From the NCBI GenBank assembly GCA_946554325.1, contig CAMNSB010000003.1, positions 1 to 47,111 of the forward strand: DNA of 47,111 nucleotides, given 5' to 3'. Under the pieces are notes generated by a model, which was not told the origin of the DNA, did no database searches, and worked only from the letters and a program-made list of their open reading frames with translations. Below, one piece after another: positions 5,233-47,111 of the stretch. Each line of letters opens with the position of its first letter. Position 1 is the stretch's first letter. The stretch comes from an uncultured Mycoplasmatota bacterium (GTDB lineage: Bacteria > Bacillota_I > Bacilli_A > RF39 > UBA660). The position numbers and the translations under genes are program-made.

Positions 5233-5541
5233 GCAGAAGTAGGGTTAATGTATCCAAGTGATTATGGATATGCTGCGGGAACTAGCAGTTGCTTAGCAAC
5301 AAGTCTGAATAATTATGGTACTGATTGCTATAAAAAGAACTGGTTGTATTCTGGTGGTGAACATATGATTACCCCAGGAGGTATTACTACAATTACACAT
5401 TTAACTGTGGCAGGAAATGTTATTCCTTATAGCGAAGCTACTAGTTCTGCTGCTGTTCGTCCTGTTGTTTATCTTAAAGCCAATATTTTAACAACAGGCG
5501 GAGACGGTAGTAGCACATCCCCTTATCAACTTGGTTTGTAG
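5233..5541 (+). pseudogene. Orphan 3' fragment of a surface/pilin-associated protein with CLec-like (DGR-target-type) C-terminus
   Basis: Reads AEVGLMYPSDYGYA...AVRPVVYL...GGDGSSTSPY directly after an in-frame TAA (5230-5232). It is paralogous to the 46525-47109 protein and has no N-terminal part or good RBS. Confidence 0.65.
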
Positions 5542-5804: not shown

Positions 5805-7250
5805 CTATGGTATATGAGTTTGTTTGTTAATAGGTGCTGTTAGTCCTGAGAATGTAGCATTGACTGGAAGGGGGCTTGCCGTTAAGTTCCTAGGTAATTC
5901 ATTTAATTGCTCAGCAATCGTAGTAGGCGTTGCCTTCGTCATACTCTCTATTGCACTTTCCTGTTCTTCTTTTTTATCCTCCTTAGAAGGAGAACTTTCC
6001 TCTATCTTTTCTTCACTTTTTACTTCCTGCTTTTTATTTTTCTGATATTCTTCTTCGATATCTGCATCAATTTCAATAATACGATAAATTTCATCAAAAC
6101 TAGTAAGACCCTCTAATACTTTTAATAAACCATCCTGAAGTAGAGTAATAACATCAGACTCATAAACTAAATCTTCAATATCTTCTTTTTCTATTCTTTC
6201 ATTAGCAAGAGCATCTCGAATGGAATCACTAATTTCTAGTACCTCCTGAACGGCAATACGACCACGATATCCATTATGACAATTAGGACACCCTTTAGGA
6301 TTGGCTGTATAAAGTTTATCGACATCTTTATCTAAAACCACTTTAAATATTTTCTTCTCATAAGCAGTCGTCTCTTTTTCCACTCTACATTTTGGACATA
6401 GCATTTTAGCAAGTCTTTGCGAAATAATACCAGTTAAAGCACTAGAAAGTAAGTATCTCTCTACATTCATATCCATAAGACGTTCAATCGTAGATAAAGA
6501 ATTATTCGTATGGATAGTAGATAATACTAAATGTCCGGTAATAGATGCACGAACAGCAATCTGAGCCGTCTCACTATCACGAATCTCCCCAATCAATATA
6601 ATATTAGGATCTTGCCTCAAAATAGAACGTAAGACAGTAGCAAAAGAAAGTCCAATCTCACTATTTACTTGAACTTGATTCATTCCCTCAATATTCATCT
6701 CAATCGGATCCTCTACAGTAATAATATTAGTCTCAGGCTTATTTAACGTCTGCAAAATAGAATAAACAGTAGTAGACTTTCCAGAACCAGTCGCACCAGT
6801 AATTAAAATAATTCCATTAGGAACCTGAATCATTCGCTTTAACTTTACAAAGTTCTCATCACTAAAACCTAAACTATCAAGTCCAGATAAACTTCTAGAA
6901 TAGTCTAAAATACGAATAACAATTTTTTCACCCTTATTAGTAGGTAAAGAAGAAACACGCATGTCAAGATTTACTCCACCAATAATTCCCTTAATCGCTC
7001 CATCCTGAGGAAGACGACTTTCTGTAATATTCATGTTAGCAAGCAGTTTTAGCCTCGTAGTGAGGTTTCTCTCATAGGCTTTTGGAATAAATGTATAATC
7101 CTGTAAATCTCCATCAATGCGAACACGAACCATCATCCCTTCTTCCCTCGGATCAAAGTGAATATCACTAGCACTATTTTCAGAGGCATAAACAATAATA
7201 TGATCAGCAATCTGTGTAATTGCCGTTTTTGCAAAATCAAACGTCACCAT
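5805..7250 (-). CDS. GspE/PulE/PilB/ComGA-family type IV pilus assembly ATPase
   Basis: ASDIHFDP, RLPQDG, Walker A GATGSGKST, ITVEDPIE, LRQDPNIILIGEIRD, TGHLVLSTIHTN and two CxxC motifs. ATG 7250 follows AAAGGGG. Confidence 0.93.
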   Translation of the reverse strand: MVTFDFAKTAITQIADHIIVYASENSASDIHFDPREEGMMVRVRIDGDLQDYTFIPKAYERNLTTRLKLLANMNITESRLPQDGAIKGIIGGVNLDMRVSSLPTNKGEKIVIRILDYSRSLSGLDSLGFSDENFVKLKRMIQVPNGIILITGATGSGKSTTVYSILQTLNKPETNIITVEDPIEMNIEGMNQVQVNSEIGLSFATVLRSILRQDPNIILIGEIRDSETAQIAVRASITGHLVLSTIHTNNSLSTIERLMDMNVERYLLSSALTGIISQRLAKMLCPKCRVEKETTAYEKKIFKVVLDKDVDKLYTANPKGCPNCHNGYRGRIAVQEVLEISDSIRDALANERIEKEDIEDLVYESDVITLLQDGLLKVLEGLTSFDEIYRIIEIDADIEEEYQKNKKQEVKSEEKIEESSPSKEDKKEEQESAIESMTKATPTTIAEQLNELPRNLTASPLPVNATFSGLTAPINKQTHIP

Positions 7251-7342
7251 ATGATTCAACCCCTTTGTTATTTTCCTATGGTATTTTACTATAAAATATT
7301 ATATAATAAATTTATAAAAATAGCAAGGAAAGATGTGGATAT

Positions 7343-7990
7343 ATGAAAAATGAAAAAGGCTTTGTCTTAGCAGAAACATTAGTAGTAGCAGTAGCAGTAA
7401 TGACAATATTTTCTCTTCTATATGCCAATTATTATCCCTTAATTGGTGAATATGAGAAAAGAGAAGTCTATGACAATATCGATAGTAAATATATTGCCCA
7501 TTGGGTAAGAAAAATATTAGTAGAAAAATCTACCAATCAAGCATTCACCACGATGAATAGCTGTGAAGGAAATTGTCATGTCGTTTATGCCTCATTCTAT
7601 GAAGACAAAAAAAAGAATGAAAATGAAATCATCCGCGAAAAAAAAGTTTTACTAGATAAAACAGATGGGCTCTTAGGCGACAACGCATCCTATTTACAGA
7701 ATTATATAGATGCAACCAACATTAAAGCTATTTTAATAACCAATTATAATATAGAAAGCTTCAAAGCTTATGTAAAAGAAAATAAAGAAATATCAGTAAC
7801 AGATATTACAGACAAAGAAAACTTTAATGAAAAAGTCATAACAAGGGGATTTCGTGATTATATAGAATACTTACCGAAATATAATAAAACACCTTCCCAA
7901 AATGGTGCATCATATCGAGTAATTGTAATTATCGATCACAATACCTCCAAAGAATATGACTCATACGCTACAATTGAGGTGAAAATATGA
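7343..7990 (+). CDS. Prepilin-type (class III signal peptide) protein
   Basis: MKNEKG|FVLAE followed by a hydrophobic helix; Glu at +5. Confidence 0.85.
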   Translation: MKNEKGFVLAETLVVAVAVMTIFSLLYANYYPLIGEYEKREVYDNIDSKYIAHWVRKILVEKSTNQAFTTMNSCEGNCHVVYASFYEDKKKNENEIIREKKVLLDKTDGLLGDNASYLQNYIDATNIKAILITNYNIESFKAYVKENKEISVTDITDKENFNEKVITRGFRDYIEYLPKYNKTPSQNGASYRVIVIIDHNTSKEYDSYATIEVKI

Positions 7991-8673
7991 AAAAGTTAAA
8001 TAACAAAGGAATGACCTCTATTGAAATATTGATTAGTTTCATCATAGTAACAGCCATCACCATTTCTCTTTTTGATACCGTAACAAACTATAAAACAAAA
8101 CAGCAAATAGAGTCCTATAAAAATATCATAACAGAATATAAAAACTCACTAACAAAAATAATAAATGATGATATCATTAAATATAAATTGGCTATGGTAT
8201 CAGAACCCAAGCAACTAGTAGATACAGATAAAATTACTTACAAAATGACTCTTTATTTTGAAAAAAATTTACTGAACAAAACTACATGCTCTACAAACTA
8301 TGGGACAAATGGATGTCACAAGACAATAGAAGTAGTGAAACATATCAACCTACCACCTGATGTAACAGAAAATGAAAAAGTAGACTATATTATTTATCCT
8401 GAAGTAGTTGGCACAACTATGAGAAAACAGACCTATACACTTCCTGATATTGGGGCAGGCTATGAAGAAGGCGAAAAGGTGGAGTCAGATGAGTTTATGG
8501 TAAAAGATATCCGCTATAGCAGCATATCATTAAAAAATCATGGTGATAATTTAATCATAGATATTGCTATATATCATCATGAACTATCAGACTACTATCA
8601 TATTTATATCGCTGCCCCTCTTGCTTATTACAATCCACTAACACCAGAAGTATTACCTTTTATAGAAAACTAA
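7987..8673 (+). CDS. Prepilin-type (class III signal peptide) protein
   Basis: MKKLNNKG|MTSIE followed by a hydrophobic helix; ATGA overlap with the previous gene. Confidence 0.85.
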   Translation: MKKLNNKGMTSIEILISFIIVTAITISLFDTVTNYKTKQQIESYKNIITEYKNSLTKIINDDIIKYKLAMVSEPKQLVDTDKITYKMTLYFEKNLLNKTTCSTNYGTNGCHKTIEVVKHINLPPDVTENEKVDYIIYPEVVGTTMRKQTYTLPDIGAGYEEGEKVESDEFMVKDIRYSSISLKNHGDNLIIDIAIYHHELSDYYHIYIAAPLAYYNPLTPEVLPFIEN

Positions 8674-45567: not shown

Positions 45568-46473
45568 ATGAATATGGTAATTAAGGTAAGCGAAGAAACA
45601 AAAAAGAAGATGATTGAGTATTATAAGGATAAGAAAAGAGATAAAGAAATTCCTTATGTTGTTTTTCAGGCAGATGAAGAGGATACGGTTATCACAATGT
45701 ACACATCTGGTAAAGTCATGTTTCAAGGAAAAAGTGCTGATGTAGATGCTACTATGTGGATGGAAGTAGATGGCCAAAGTGCAAAGAGTGAAAAAAAAGA
45801 AGATTTAGGTAAATATCATAACTGTACATCAGTTGGTAGTGATGAAGTGGGAACGGGAGACTACTTTGGTCCAATCGTAGTAACAGCATCCTATGTAACA
45901 AAAGAAGATGTAAAGTTCTTAGAGGATTTAGGAATCAGGGACTCTAAAAAAATTGATGATGAAAAAATTAAAAAAATAGCTCCAGAAATAGCAAAAAGAA
46001 TCAAATATCGTAGTATGATTTTAAGTAATAAAGAATATAATGAAAAATATAGTAAAGATATCAATATGAATAAAATCAAAGCCATCCTTCATAACAAAGT
46101 ACTATATCAATTAATAGAAGAAGAACATCCTAAAATTGATTATATTATTGTAGATGAATTTGCTAGAGAAAAAAGATATTATGAATATTTAGAGGGGATT
46201 CCAAACATCCAGCGAGGAATCACTTTTATGACCAAAGCAGAAGATAAAAACCTAGCAGTAGCATGTGCTTCTATTATTAGTCGTTATATCTTTTTAAAGG
46301 AGTTTGATAAACTTTGTGATACCCTTCACCTACCTCTAGTAAAGGGTGCAGGAAGTGAAGTAGATAAGATTGGAGAAGAAGTAGTAGAAAAATATGGAGA
46401 AGAAAAATTAACAGAGATTGCCAAACTTAACTTTAAGAATACAGAAAGAATTCTACATACCATGATATTTTAA
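45568..46473 (+). CDS. rnhC: Ribonuclease HIII
   Basis: N-terminal TBP-like YTSGKVMFQG; GSDEVGTGDYFGP, DSKK and AVACASIISR. Confidence 0.96.
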   Translation: MNMVIKVSEETKKKMIEYYKDKKRDKEIPYVVFQADEEDTVITMYTSGKVMFQGKSADVDATMWMEVDGQSAKSEKKEDLGKYHNCTSVGSDEVGTGDYFGPIVVTASYVTKEDVKFLEDLGIRDSKKIDDEKIKKIAPEIAKRIKYRSMILSNKEYNEKYSKDINMNKIKAILHNKVLYQLIEEEHPKIDYIIVDEFAREKRYYEYLEGIPNIQRGITFMTKAEDKNLAVACASIISRYIFLKEFDKLCDTLHLPLVKGAGSEVDKIGEEVVEKYGEEKLTEIAKLNFKNTERILHTMIF

Positions 46474-46497
46474 AGAGATGCCAAGCATCTCTTTTTC
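46473..46497. terminator. Bidirectional terminator
   Basis: AAAGAGATGC-CAA-GCATCTCTTT. Confidence 0.75.
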
Positions 46498-46524: not shown

Positions 46525-47109
46525 TCAAGACACATTAGGATCTAAATCAACAGTAAACGGATCATCGCGACTCCCGTCCCCACCACCTACGATTGTCCCA
46601 GGTGCAAGTGAAACTGCGGGCCGAACGCCGAACGGGTTGTGCATGCCGTAGTTGCTCAGATTGCCACTGGAGCTGACGCCGAGGCCGTTAGCATAGTAGT
46701 AGTCGAAGTAAGACGGCGACAAAGCCCACCAATACTTATTCGTATACAAATAACTTAAACTACTATATCCACTCCATCCATGTCCTGCTAATGTTAACTC
46801 ATCTCCTGTGAGTAGTGCCACTGGATAGGTTAATGCTCCATTTCCATTCTCTTCACTTACTGTAAATTGATCTAATTTGTTAACACATTCCAAACTTGGT
46901 TGATGTAATACCACATTTCTTCCATTCGCACCAAATCTTGTATAAGTATTGGTACTAGAATCTTCATCCTTACTCTTTAATGGTCCATTATAGATACTCC
47001 TATCATTACACCATACTGTATCTTCCAACGAGTCAGTATAATCCAACATATTTGCCTGATACCAATTATCAATTGCCTTCTTGATTGTAGAATCATTTGT
47101 ATTGACAAA
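46525..47109 (-). CDS. Surface protein C-terminus with CLec-like DGR-target domain, 5'-truncated by window edge
   Basis: Frame is open to the edge (FVNTNDSTIKKAIDNWYQAN...). It contains WCNDR, YPVALLTGDE, YWWALSP...GVRPAVSL and GGDGS.DDPF. Confidence 0.85.
   Translation of the reverse strand, partial: FVNTNDSTIKKAIDNWYQANMLDYTDSLEDTVWCNDRSIYNGPLKSKDEDSSTNTYTRFGANGRNVVLHQPSLECVNKLDQFTVSEENGNGALTYPVALLTGDELTLAGHGWSGYSSLSYLYTNKYWWALSPSYFDYYYANGLGVSSSGNLSNYGMHNPFGVRPAVSLAPGTIVGGGDGSRDDPFTVDLDPNVS
46606..46735 (-). other. Putative DGR variable region (VR)
   Basis: 70/120 nt G+C in 46611-46730; 21 of 28 consecutive codons end in C and none in A; ends in the G/C-rich CGGCGTTCGGCCCGC. Confidence 0.75.
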
Positions 47110-47111
47110 CA

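What the first reader, a model, noticed from the sequence alone, without database searches (positions are those of the whole stretch)
46525..47111. Chromosomal DGR-type variable region on a surface protein, with no template or RT in the window
Seen: the gene's G+C jumps from 17/60 (46861-46920) to 70/120 (46611-46730) exactly over YWWALSPSYFDYYYANGLGVSSSGNLSNYGMHNPFGVRPAVSL. Of 28 consecutive codons, 21 end in C (tac ttc gac tac tac ... aac ggc ctc ggc gtc agc tcc ... agc aac tac ggc ... cac aac ... ttc ggc) and none end in A, the reverse of this genome's bias. The segment closes with G/C-rich CGGCGTTCGGCCCGC. Known: DGRs mutate adenines of AAC-rich template repeats, leaving NNC codons in C-terminal CLec-fold variable regions bounded by W-x-x-S and G-[VF]-R-P motifs. 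Here rnhC, a core gene, lies directly downstream, and I found no TR copy or reverse transcriptase in 47 kb. Inference: a non-phage, probably trans-targeted DGR diversifies a family of adhesin/pilin-tip proteins. Together with the paralogous orphan tip at 5233-5541 and the prepilin locus, this suggests a hypervariable pilus-adhesin system in a little-studied gut Bacilli lineage.
Basis: partly seen in the sequence, partly recalled or inferred. Interest (0 to 1): 0.85.

Follow-up and report, generated by a model that had tools for sequence, protein, structure and literature searches.

The report
Retroelement-diversified tip of a gut-bacterium adhesin
The GC-rich patch is a genuine variable region of a diversity-generating retroelement whose template, helper protein and reverse transcriptase lie on another contig of the same small gut-bacterial genome; this is a well-known kind of system, here rewriting several scattered surface-protein genes.

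Summary
Window 46617-46718(-) is a DGR variable repeat (VR) at the C-terminus of a gene cut by the contig end.

- **Cassette:** the window's genome holds the cognate cassette on contig C68, in the order AAC-rich template repeat (TR), Avd-like ORF, 493-aa reverse transcriptase (RT).
- **TR/VR match:** they differ at 19 of 102 positions, 15 of them at TR adenines. All 33 TR adenines sit at codon positions 1 or 2.
- **Other targets:** three more VRs (C26, C1, C66) share the same 3' flank and differ from the TR almost only at adenines. About ten further paralogues carry decayed VRs.
- **Location:** targets lie beside core genes (rnhC, smc) and the cassette sits among cellular genes.
- **Fold:** a paralogue's VR domain models (pLDDT 95) as a DUF6273/C-type-lectin-like fold.
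- **N-terminus:** the link to the prepilin locus is not supported. The closest full-length relative, and a 3'-open gene on C27, are VWA plus GBS104-like-Ig adhesins. The ~500-aa paralogues look TasA/camelysin-like.
- **RT extension:** the RT carries a C-terminal MutS-domain-I fold, a rare feature already noted in print.
- **Not shown:** ongoing diversification at this locus.

Verdict: a new member of a known kind.

The parts
46525..47111 (-). 3' part (194 codons plus TGA stop at 46525-46527) of a DGR target gene. Its 5' part is cut off by the contig end.
   Evidence: ORF list. 62% identical to residues 879-1070 of the 1071-aa VWA adhesin-like protein P0318. Weak DUF6273 match at residues 123-169 (E 0.0072, below cut-off).
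46617..46718 (-). Variable repeat (VR): the part that aligns with the assembled 102 nt of the template repeat on C68:7650-7549(-).
   Evidence: 81% identity to the TR. 19 mismatches, 15 at TR adenines (15 of 33 A sites against 4 of 69 other sites, Fisher p 4.8e-6). GC 0.58 against a genome mean of 0.30.
46719..46731 (-). Probable 5' continuation of the VR (TGGTGGGCTTTGT, encoding W-W-A-L). The matching 5' part of the TR is not assembled in this genome.
   Evidence: The full 13-mer is shared by the VRs of C3, C26 and C34; C1 shares only its last 10 bases. TRs of relatives extend over the homologous bases, e.g. L025.
46587..46616 (-). IMH-like 3' flank of the VR (CAGTTTCACTTGCACCTGGGACAATCGTAG), following the GC-rich 13-mer GGCGTTCGGCCCG at 46617-46629.
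   Evidence: The flank is identical in C26, C1 and C66e, and C3 differs from them at one base. The TR continues differently (ATTTTCACTAAAATAC...). This layout of a GC-rich start followed by imperfect TR/VR repeats matches the description of IMH/IMH* in Wu et al. (PMC5758913, passages read).
46475..46491 (.). Short hairpin (GAGATGC-TTG-GCATCTC) between the convergent target gene and rnhC; a possible shared terminator.
   Evidence: Read directly from the sequence. The consensus terminator scan did not call it (0 found).
45568..46473 (+). rnhC (ribonuclease HIII), a core gene convergent with the target gene. It shows that this VR is not next to the DGR cassette.
   Evidence: TIGR00716, 222.4 bits against a cut-off of 161.2.

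Best explanation
Window 46617-46718(-) is the variable repeat of a chromosomal diversity-generating retroelement. The cassette lies on another contig of the same genome (C68), in the order TR (AAC-rich, 33 adenines in the 102 nt assembled), a ~190-nt structured spacer RNA, an Avd-like 122-aa protein, and a 493-aa DGR-type reverse transcriptase with a C-terminal MutS-domain-I fold.

Inferred mechanism, by analogy with characterised DGRs: the TR-spacer RNA is bound by RT-Avd and copied into cDNA with random bases opposite template adenines. The cDNA then replaces the VR of any target gene that carries the matching GC-rich end and IMH-like flank.

The adenines occupy only codon positions 1 and 2 (15 AAC, 1 AAT, 1 AGT). 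Each round therefore rewrites up to 17 residues on the ligand-binding face of a DUF6273/C-type-lectin-like domain without creating stop codons.

At least four target loci dispersed beside core genes share the flank (C3 = this window, C26, C1, C66), so the element works in trans.

Shown here: the parts, the adenine-specific TR/VR pattern, the fold and the RNA covariation. Inferred: that retrohoming is still going on, and that the proteins are surface adhesins.
For: - **RT:** one RVT_1 match in the genome, on C68 (61.9 bits). The RT-clade profile hits the 328-aa 'Reverse transcriptase' 8ub7_A at E 3.1e-33, against 5.3e-16 for the best group II intron RT. YMDD and I-G-A-x-x-S-Q are invariant in 30 sequences.
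- **TR position:** the TR is adjacent to the RT and Avd-like ORF.
- **TR/VR mismatches at TR adenines:** C3 15 of 19, C26 15 of 16, C1 14 of 17 (Fisher p 4.8e-6, 3.8e-8, 4.7e-6).
- **Codon positions:** TR adenines sit at position 1 (17), position 2 (16) and position 3 (0).
- **C3 against C26:** 19 of 33 A sites differ, against 5 of 69 non-A sites, 13 of 200 upstream bases and 9 of 86 downstream bases.
- **Protein level:** among 6 sequences, including P0241 and P0242 from other sources, 16 of 17 A-containing TR codons vary, against 3 of 16 others.
- **Avd:** 12 of 15 orthologues hit NCBIfam DivGenRetAVD at E <= 0.01.
- **Spacer RNA:** 30 pairs, 23 with compensatory changes; 94.4% paired against 30-43% in slid controls; 0 of 500 shuffles reach the observed value.
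- **Relatives:** in 12 of 16 related loci a cis VR lies upstream of a homologous TR with most mismatches at A, all of them in 6 loci (14/14, 17/17, 21/21, 15/15, 22/22, 24/24).
- **Fold:** paralogue model pLDDT 95.2. The DUF6273 N-terminal domain of 9qa6 scores Z 13.5, then Lcl Z 6.1, C-type lectin domains Z 4-5 and TvpA Z 4.9.
Against: - The C3 VR has 4 non-adenine mismatches to the TR (C26 has 1, C1 has 3), so this copy may be older or less often rewritten.
- The TR is cut at its 5' end by the contig end, and the expected cis target just upstream is not in the assembly.
- The locus-specific population test failed. Logan contigs break at the VR and paralogues map on top of each other. Two exact-pattern scans of metagenome contigs found nothing.
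- Avd matches are all below NCBIfam's cut-off, and no Avd was found by profile in the PDB.
- The fold was modelled on paralogue C80, not on the window's own truncated protein.
- No GC-rich inverted repeat follows the IMH-like flank. Such a repeat is present in only 34% of DGRs according to PMC5758913.
- The C66 VR is almost unmutated (2 differences from the TR).
Confidence: 0.9

Rival explanations
1. Fossil VR. The segment was written by the DGR in the past but is no longer a substrate, so the pattern is a frozen record.
For: There are 4 non-A mismatches in C3, the most among the four flank-sharing copies. The family shows a graded series of decaying VRs: 60-61 of 69 non-A matches in C34 and C80, and 43-55 in eight other sites. 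So loss of targeting does happen. No direct evidence of current variation at this locus was obtained.
Against: RT, Avd and TR are intact. C3 keeps the IMH-like flank, one base different from the form that C26, C1 and C66e share. Non-A divergence inside the VR between C3 and C26 (5 of 69) is no higher than in the flanks (13 of 200 and 9 of 86), as expected if the TR still homogenises these positions. Non-A differences occur in accepted DGR targets (PMC5758913).
Confidence: 0.15
2. Paralogue gene conversion or recombination, not reverse transcription, created the patchwork. The AAC-rich copy on C68 would be just another pseudogene fragment.
For: The genome holds at least 25 paralogous C-terminal domains, some in tandem, which gives ample substrate for conversion. 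C66e is nearly identical to the C68 copy.
Against: Conversion cannot explain why differences fall on the adenines of one particular copy (15 of 33 A sites against 1-4 of 69 others). That copy is non-coding: its VR-matching frame ends four codons past the repeat, and the other two frames have stops inside it. It sits directly upstream of Avd and a DGR-type RT. The same TR-Avd-RT order recurs with homologous TRs in the 21 related loci examined.
Confidence: 0.03
3. A horizontally acquired GC-rich patch or compositional artefact unrelated to any retroelement.
For: None beyond the GC contrast itself.
Against: The TR match, adenine specificity, codon-position bias and conserved cassette.
Confidence: 0.01

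Closest known systems
Treponema denticola DGR (TvpA plus remote targets)
   Same: A chromosomal, non-phage DGR with one TR serving several non-adjacent target genes. The VR lies at the C-terminus of a C-type-lectin-like fold. Wu et al. report seven non-adjacent targets for it, and remote targets only for DGRs without phage association (PMC5758913, passages). TvpA (2y3c) aligns to the model at Z 4.9.
   Different: Per that paper the Treponema element represents the HRDC-gene architecture. Here there is an Avd-like ORF and an RT with a MutS-I fold, and no HRDC gene was seen on C68. The target scaffold is DUF6273-like, and the hosts are Bacilli with ~1.4-Mb genomes.
Bacteroides DGRs that diversify type V pilus tip adhesins (bioRxiv 10.1101/2024.11.15.621889)
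   Same: Gut commensal; chromosomal or ICE-borne DGRs rewriting adhesive surface proteins. They have Avd and, in some, a MutS-like accessory factor (Msl). Host mutS lowers retrohoming 5- to 10-fold (passages read). The Bacteroides fimbrial protein 4eps is the second-best structural match (Z 6.6).
   Different: There Msl is a separate small protein; here the MutS-I fold is fused to the RT. The targets here are not type V pilins. They are VWA/GBS104-Ig adhesin-like proteins and TasA/camelysin-like proteins.
DUF6273 DGR targets of gut Bacillota phages (tentaclins; Faecalibacterium prophages)
   Same: The same Pfam domain carries the VR and was judged C-type-lectin-like by the authors (PMC10743442 and PMC11792537, passages).
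   Different: Those are phage receptor-binding or tail proteins with cis DGRs. Here the targets are cellular genes beside rnhC and smc, and the cassette is among cellular genes.
Bordetella phage BPP-1 DGR (mtd-avd-TR-brt)
   Same: RT family (best PDB match 8ub7_A, which I recall as bRT), Avd, an AAC-rich TR, a GC-rich IMH start, and structured RNA 3' of the TR needed for priming (bioRxiv 10.1101/2023.10.23.563531, abstract and section 10).
   Different: The gene order here is TR-avd-RT. The targets are remote and multiple. There is no inverted repeat after the IMH-like flank. The RT is 165 aa longer.

Membership tests
Diversity-generating retroelement (DGR) | Reverse transcriptase of the DGR clade with an intact catalytic motif | tested here: met
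   RVT_1 at 60-62 bits. The clade profile hits 8ub7_A at E 3.1e-33 against 5.3e-16 for the best group II RT. Y247-M248-D249-D250 and I215-G216-A217..S220-Q221 are invariant in 30 sequences. That [I/L/V]GxxxSQ marks DGR RTs is recalled, not tested.
Diversity-generating retroelement (DGR) | TR/VR pair whose differences fall at TR adenines | tested here: met
   C3: 15 of 19 mismatches at A (15 of 33 A sites against 4 of 69 others, p 4.8e-6). C26: 15 of 16. C1: 14 of 17.
Diversity-generating retroelement (DGR) | TR adenines placed at codon positions 1-2 of the VR frame (AAC-type codons) | tested here: met
   17 adenines at position 1, 16 at position 2, 0 at position 3. Codons: 15 AAC, 1 AAT, 1 AGT.
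Diversity-generating retroelement (DGR) | Accessory protein (Avd or another) next to the RT | tested here: inconclusive
   A 122-aa ORF overlaps the RT start. DivGenRetAVD matches at E 6e-4, 20 bits against a cut-off of 80, covering 2-102 of 104 profile positions. 12 of 15 orthologues match at E <= 0.01, best 1.1e-7. No Avd hit in the PDB by profile.
Diversity-generating retroelement (DGR) | IMH at the VR end and a non-identical IMH* at the TR end | tested here: met
   A GC-rich 13-mer is shared (C3 differs from the TR at one base). After it the VR flank (C[G/A]GTTTCACTTGCACC...) diverges from the TR flank (ATTTTCACTAAAATAC...). The VR flank is conserved in 4 targets. Its function could not be tested.
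Diversity-generating retroelement (DGR) | VR on a C-type-lectin-like (or Ig) scaffold, usually C-terminal | tested here: met
   Model of paralogue C80 residues 193-493: pLDDT 95.2. 9qa6_A N-terminal domain (DUF6273) Z 13.5, Lcl Z 6.1, C-type lectin domains Z 4-5, TvpA Z 4.9. The window's own protein was not modelled, and its DUF6273 match is below cut-off.
Diversity-generating retroelement (DGR) | Ongoing mutagenic retrohoming (VR haplotype diversity in a population) | tested here: inconclusive
   Near-identical flanks with different VRs occur in proteins from other sources (P0241, P0242), but orthology to this locus is not shown. The read-laying result is confounded by paralogues.
Type IV pilin / prepilin-dependent pilus tip | N-terminal class III (prepilin) leader, or genetic linkage to the pilus locus | tested here: inconclusive
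   The N-terminus of the window gene is off the contig. Full-length paralogues begin with a SipW-type/TasA-like signal region. P0318 and the C27 gene begin with a plain signal-anchor. The T2SSE/prepilin-like genes lie 38 kb away.
TasA/camelysin (Peptidase_M73) proteins, for the ~500-aa paralogues | Peptidase_M73 N-terminal domain with a SipW-dependent signal peptide | tested here: inconclusive
   Homologues P0231 and P0237 (45% identical, 96% coverage) pass the Pfam cut-off (31.5 and 30.9 bits against 22.5). The genome's own paralogues do not. One hits TIGR04088 at 17.3 bits against a cut-off of 19. The Atlas's nearest cluster is camelysin, score 0.92. Five SipW-type peptidases pass the cut-off in the genome.
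MutS domain I (mismatch-binding domain), for the RT C-terminal extension | MutS_I fold and the Phe-x-Glu mismatch-contact motif | tested here: inconclusive
   Fold met: model pLDDT 90.2; every Foldseek PDB match listed is a MutS/MSH chain, the best being 1wbd_B (E 1e-4, rmsd 1.6 A over 80 columns). Sequence is weak: Pfam E 0.0018, below cut-off. Aligned with the window's own MutS, GIFYKTF lies over GDFYEMF, so Phe is kept and Glu becomes Lys. F40 and K42 are at least 90% conserved and Y41 is invariant. That the motif is the mismatch contact is recalled.

The most novel reading that the evidence does not exclude
The RT-fused MutS-domain-I module binds the mismatch-dense cDNA:VR heteroduplex and shields it from, or steers, host mismatch repair. 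This lets one cassette rewrite many dispersed loci efficiently. The roughly 28-member family, with its graded series of VR decay, would then be a living record of targets being recruited to and released from hypermutation in a minimal-genome gut commensal.
Probability: 0.2. Interest if true: 0.7.

Novelty: new member of a known kind. Interest (0 to 1): 0.5.

Why it matters
This gives a clean, internally controlled example of a cellular, trans-acting DGR in an uncultured, reduced-genome gut Bacilli lineage from mouse gut. Four or more targets sit beside core genes, there are two adhesin architectures, and paralogues are caught at different stages of losing their VR.

It also places the rare RT-MutS-I fusion in an abundant clade: among the 120 best-scoring homologue clusters listed (49-97% identical to the RT), 27 carry a precomputed MutS_I hit. 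That is timely, because host MutS was recently shown to restrain DGR retrohoming in Bacteroides. The fusion is directly testable in reconstituted systems.

For the scan itself, it shows that a 'VR without TR in the window' call can be settled by one whole-genome search.

Tried and rejected
**Locus-specific population variation**
- The look-up of sequencing runs gave 19 holder runs from 15 studies, mostly mouse gut.
- Read laying on 4 runs: contigs anchored in rnhC stop at 46599 (X3, X4) or 46623 (X5). The many VR-region contigs cannot be assigned to this locus rather than to C26, C1 or C66. No verdict.
- Exact-pattern scans of metagenome contigs with the unique intergenic flank and with the shared VR 3' flank each gave 0 hits.

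**Other negative or rejected results**
- Rfam on the cassette locus: no family at E <= 0.1 in the TR-avd spacer.
- The terminator/promoter scan between the target gene and rnhC found nothing.
- Inverted-repeat search after the VR found only an AT palindrome upstream of the VR.
- Contig joining: the last 200 nt of C3 have no overlapping contig end, only 71-79% paralogue hits. The link from C27 to C3 is therefore a hypothesis.
- The UDG-superfamily gene convergent with the RT was considered as an accessory gene and rejected. It is found next to the RT in only 1 of 80 related loci (L024).
- High-GC windows on C52, C54 and C16 were checked as possible second TRs and rejected. They are a collagen-like repeat, 23S rRNA and a Gly/Ala/Pro-rich coding stretch.
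- The PDB profile search with the RT clade listed no MutS chain at E <= 1. The MutS-I call rests on the fold search and weak sequence matches.

**Literature**
- No paper in the library holds 'diversity-generating retroelement' together with 'RF39' or with 'TasA'.
Supplementary Table S1 of PMC5758913 may already list RTs of this clade.
Full report
**Observation**

G+C is 17/60 at 46861-46920 and 70/120 at 46611-46730. Of 28 consecutive codons, 21 end in C and none in A, whereas the other 159 codons of the same ORF end in T 70, A 48, G 30, C 11. The peptide and the closing GC-rich run are present.

Only 12 of 46,375 120-nt windows in the 1.40-Mb, 30.2%-GC genome reach this G+C. The gene is on the minus strand and ends at 46525. 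It runs off the contig at 47111 and is convergent with rnhC (TIGR00716, 222 bits).

**The missing parts exist**

The window is contig C3 of a 92-contig genome (94.6% complete). That genome has a single RVT_1 match, on C68.

Reading C68 on its minus strand from its end gives four parts:
- a 102-nt AAC-rich repeat (7650-7549), cut by the contig end;
- a ~190-nt spacer;
- a 122-aa ORF;
- a 493-aa RT that overlaps the end of that ORF.

The repeat is 81% identical to window 46718-46617.

**Adenine specificity**

TR and VR differ at 19 positions, 15 of them TR adenines. That is 15 of 33 A sites against 4 of 69 other sites (Fisher p 4.8e-6).

In the VR reading frame the 33 adenines sit at codon position 1 (17) or 2 (16) and never at 3. 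The codons are 15 AAC, 1 AAT and 1 AGT, and the TR reads PSNFNNNNANGLNVNSSGNLNNNNVNNSNGVRP.

The shared GC-rich 13-mer is followed by different sequence in the VR and the TR. This is the IMH/IMH* layout described by Wu et al. (PMC5758913, passages).

**More targets**

I scanned the genome for windows that match the TR at non-adenine positions. It gave 14 VR-like sites besides the TR.

| Tier | Sites | Non-A matches (of 69) | Notes |
|---|---|---|---|
| 1 | C66 end, C26, C1, C3 | 68, 68, 66, 65 | Same 30-nt 3' flank (C3 differs at one base) |
| 2 | C34, C80 | 61, 60 | Different flanks |
| 3 | Eight other sites | 43-55 | Decayed |

C26 and C1 differ from the TR at 15 of 16 and 14 of 17 mismatches at adenines. 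The C66 copy is almost unmutated, with 2 differences. Two further contig ends (C70 and C1:1-51) hold only the conserved 3' tail.

Between C3 and C26, 19 of 33 A sites differ, against 5 of 69 non-A sites, 13 of 200 upstream bases and 9 of 86 downstream bases.

The C1 copy is a 64-80-aa orphan frame whose upstream DNA is unrelated (138 of 200 bases differ), yet its VR and flank are kept.

The C66 target lies beside smc and folD and the C3 target beside rnhC. These are remote targets.

**Variation elsewhere**

Two proteins from other sources (P0241, jgi; P0242, ena) are almost identical to the window protein for about 60 residues before the VR but differ inside it. Among six sequences, 16 of 17 A-containing TR codons vary, against 3 of 16 others.

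Whether these proteins are alleles of this locus or paralogues is unknown. The read-level test was inconclusive, and two metagenome scans found nothing.

**The target protein**

- **Fold.** A model of paralogue C80 residues 193-493 has pLDDT 95.2. Its best structural match is the DUF6273 N-terminal domain of the Thomasclavelia ramosa IgA peptidase (Z 13.5, rmsd 3.4 A, 191 residues aligned). Below it come a Bacteroides fimbrial protein (Z 6.6), Legionella Lcl (Z 6.1), many C-type lectin domains (Z 4-5) and the DGR target TvpA (Z 4.9). DUF6273 is already known as a DGR target scaffold in gut phages.
- **Paralogue count.** tblastn finds 25 paralogous C-terminal domains on 27 contigs, some in tandem.
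- **The ~500-aa paralogues.** They start with a signal region of the SipW type. Relatives 45% identical pass the Pfam cut-offs for Peptidase_M73 (camelysin/TasA) and DUF6273. The genome has five SipW-type peptidases over the cut-off.
- **The window's subfamily looks different.** Its best full-length relative, P0318 (1071 aa, 62% identical over residues 879-1070), is VWA plus an InlB B-repeat, with a weak GBS104-like Ig match. Contig C27 ends in a 3'-open 641-aa gene that is 60% identical to P0318 residues 2-641. That gene carries VWA_2 (62.5 bits), GBS104-like tip-pilin Ig (27.8 bits, cut-off 26) and Flg_new_2.
- **Reading.** The window fragment is plausibly the C-terminus of such a VWA adhesin. 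The physical link from C27 to C3 is not shown.
- **Prepilin link.** Nothing ties the gene to the T2SSE/prepilin-like genes at 5.8-8.7 kb or to the ORF at 5248-5541.

**The cassette**

- **RT clade.** The RT-clade profile matches 8ub7_A at E 3.1e-33. The PDB names it only 'Reverse transcriptase', 328 aa; I recall it as Bordetella phage bRT. The best group II intron RT scores 5.3e-16.
- **RT extension.** Residues 342-493 model at pLDDT 90.2. Every Foldseek PDB match listed is a MutS/MSH chain, the best with rmsd 1.6 A over 80 columns. Aligned with the window's own MutS, GIFYKTF lies over GDFYEMF.
- **Prior report.** Wu et al. noted weak MutS_I similarity in three DGR RTs and described a separate MutS-like accessory protein. 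Here 27 of the 120 listed homologue clusters carry a precomputed MutS_I hit.
- **Avd.** The call is weak but consistent.
- **Spacer RNA.** The TR-avd spacer is a conserved structured RNA. This fits the RNA elements downstream of the TR reported across DGRs (bioRxiv 10.1101/2023.10.23.563531, section 10).
- **Genomic context.** Downstream neighbours are cellular: UDG superfamily, radical SAM, patatin, VanY. The closest relative (L024, RT 79% identical) keeps the same neighbours.

**Relatives**

RT matches at E <= 1e-30 occur in 44 of 150 other genera of the same family, and the target domain in 54 of 150. By my hand cross-tabulation, 30 genera have both, 14 only the RT and 24 only the domain. 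Kin are not independent, so this is descriptive only. The one same-genus genome had neither.

Related loci come from MAGs labelled Bacilli, Mycoplasma sp., Erysipelotrichaceae and Tenericutes, with shorter RTs in Saccharibacteria. A homologous TR lies about 615-740 nt upstream of the RT in 18 of the 21 loci examined; in the other three the densest AAC window lay 1.1-1.5 kb upstream. A cis VR lies upstream of the TR in 12 of 16 loci.

**Verdict**

This is a genuine DGR variable region served in trans by a chromosomal cassette: a new member of a known kind. The variant features of interest are the multi-locus targeting beside core genes, the two adhesin architectures, the graded VR decay across a large family, and the RT-MutS-I fusion.

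The main open points are current activity at this locus, the gene's N-terminus, and the unassembled TR 5' end with its cis target.

Noticed in passing
G000 contig C68:5537-7015(-) (L011:916-2394), outside the window: The DGR RT has a ~150-aa C-terminal extension. It models as a MutS domain I fold followed by two long helices. In the motif aligned with MutS, Phe is kept and Glu is replaced by Lys.
   Followed up: partly
G000 C68:7548-7362(-) (L011:2729-2944) and 15 related loci: A ~190-nt conserved structured RNA lies between the TR and avd, with an invariant TGAAACA core. It has 30 predicted pairs, 23 with compensatory changes, and no Rfam match.
   Followed up: partly
G000 contigs C6, C11, C13, C26, C31, C34, C42, C45, C46, C52, C59, C60, C62, C63, C66, C72, C73, C80, C81: A very large paralogous surface-protein family: 25 C-terminal domains by tblastn, with tandem arrays on C45, C59 and C60 and a broken copy at C66:3033-4113. 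Many contigs end inside these genes, so the true number may be higher.
   Followed up: partly
G000 C66:8104-8205(-): A VR inside a target gene that is almost identical to the TR (2 differences), encoding an Asn-rich tip. A loose contig end in run X5 shows the same variant. Possible causes are a recent non-mutagenic homing event, a protected copy or an assembly effect.
   Followed up: no
G000 C1:183-422(+): An orphan VR in an 80-codon stop-to-stop frame, with no domain body and unrelated upstream DNA. Its differences from the TR are still adenine-specific (14 of 17).
   Followed up: partly
L026 (relative G126), about 60-1750: Four further TR-like copies lie in tandem upstream of the TR. Three have few of their mismatches at adenines (2 of 11, 5 of 14, 3 of 14). 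This is unlike the single cis VR of the other relatives.
   Followed up: no
G000 C42:4160-4603, C42:8423-8884, C23:16287-16766, C23:11519-11956, C13:21425-21775: Five SipW-type (archaeal-type) signal peptidase I homologues pass the cut-off in a 1.4-Mb genome. Three of them lie on the two contigs (C42, C13) that also carry family paralogues.
   Followed up: no
window 5248-5541(+): A 97-aa ORF that shares only the C-terminal tail motif (VRP..L...GGDGS..P) with the target family. It has no Pfam hit and did not pass the TR scan.
   Followed up: yes
window 5805-8673: A T2SSE-family ATPase (397 bits) lies beside two ORFs with prepilin-like N-termini. It looks like a competence or type IV pilus locus unrelated to the DGR.
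   Followed up: partly
G000 C52:1-420: A collagen-like Gly-X-Y repeat coding region (GC 0.56-0.59) at a contig start. It accounts for the other cluster of high-GC windows.
   Followed up: partly
L024:2418-4351: In the closest relative, two genes (410 aa and 230 aa) are inserted between the RT and the UDG-like gene, in an otherwise syntenic region. I did not identify them.
   Followed up: no
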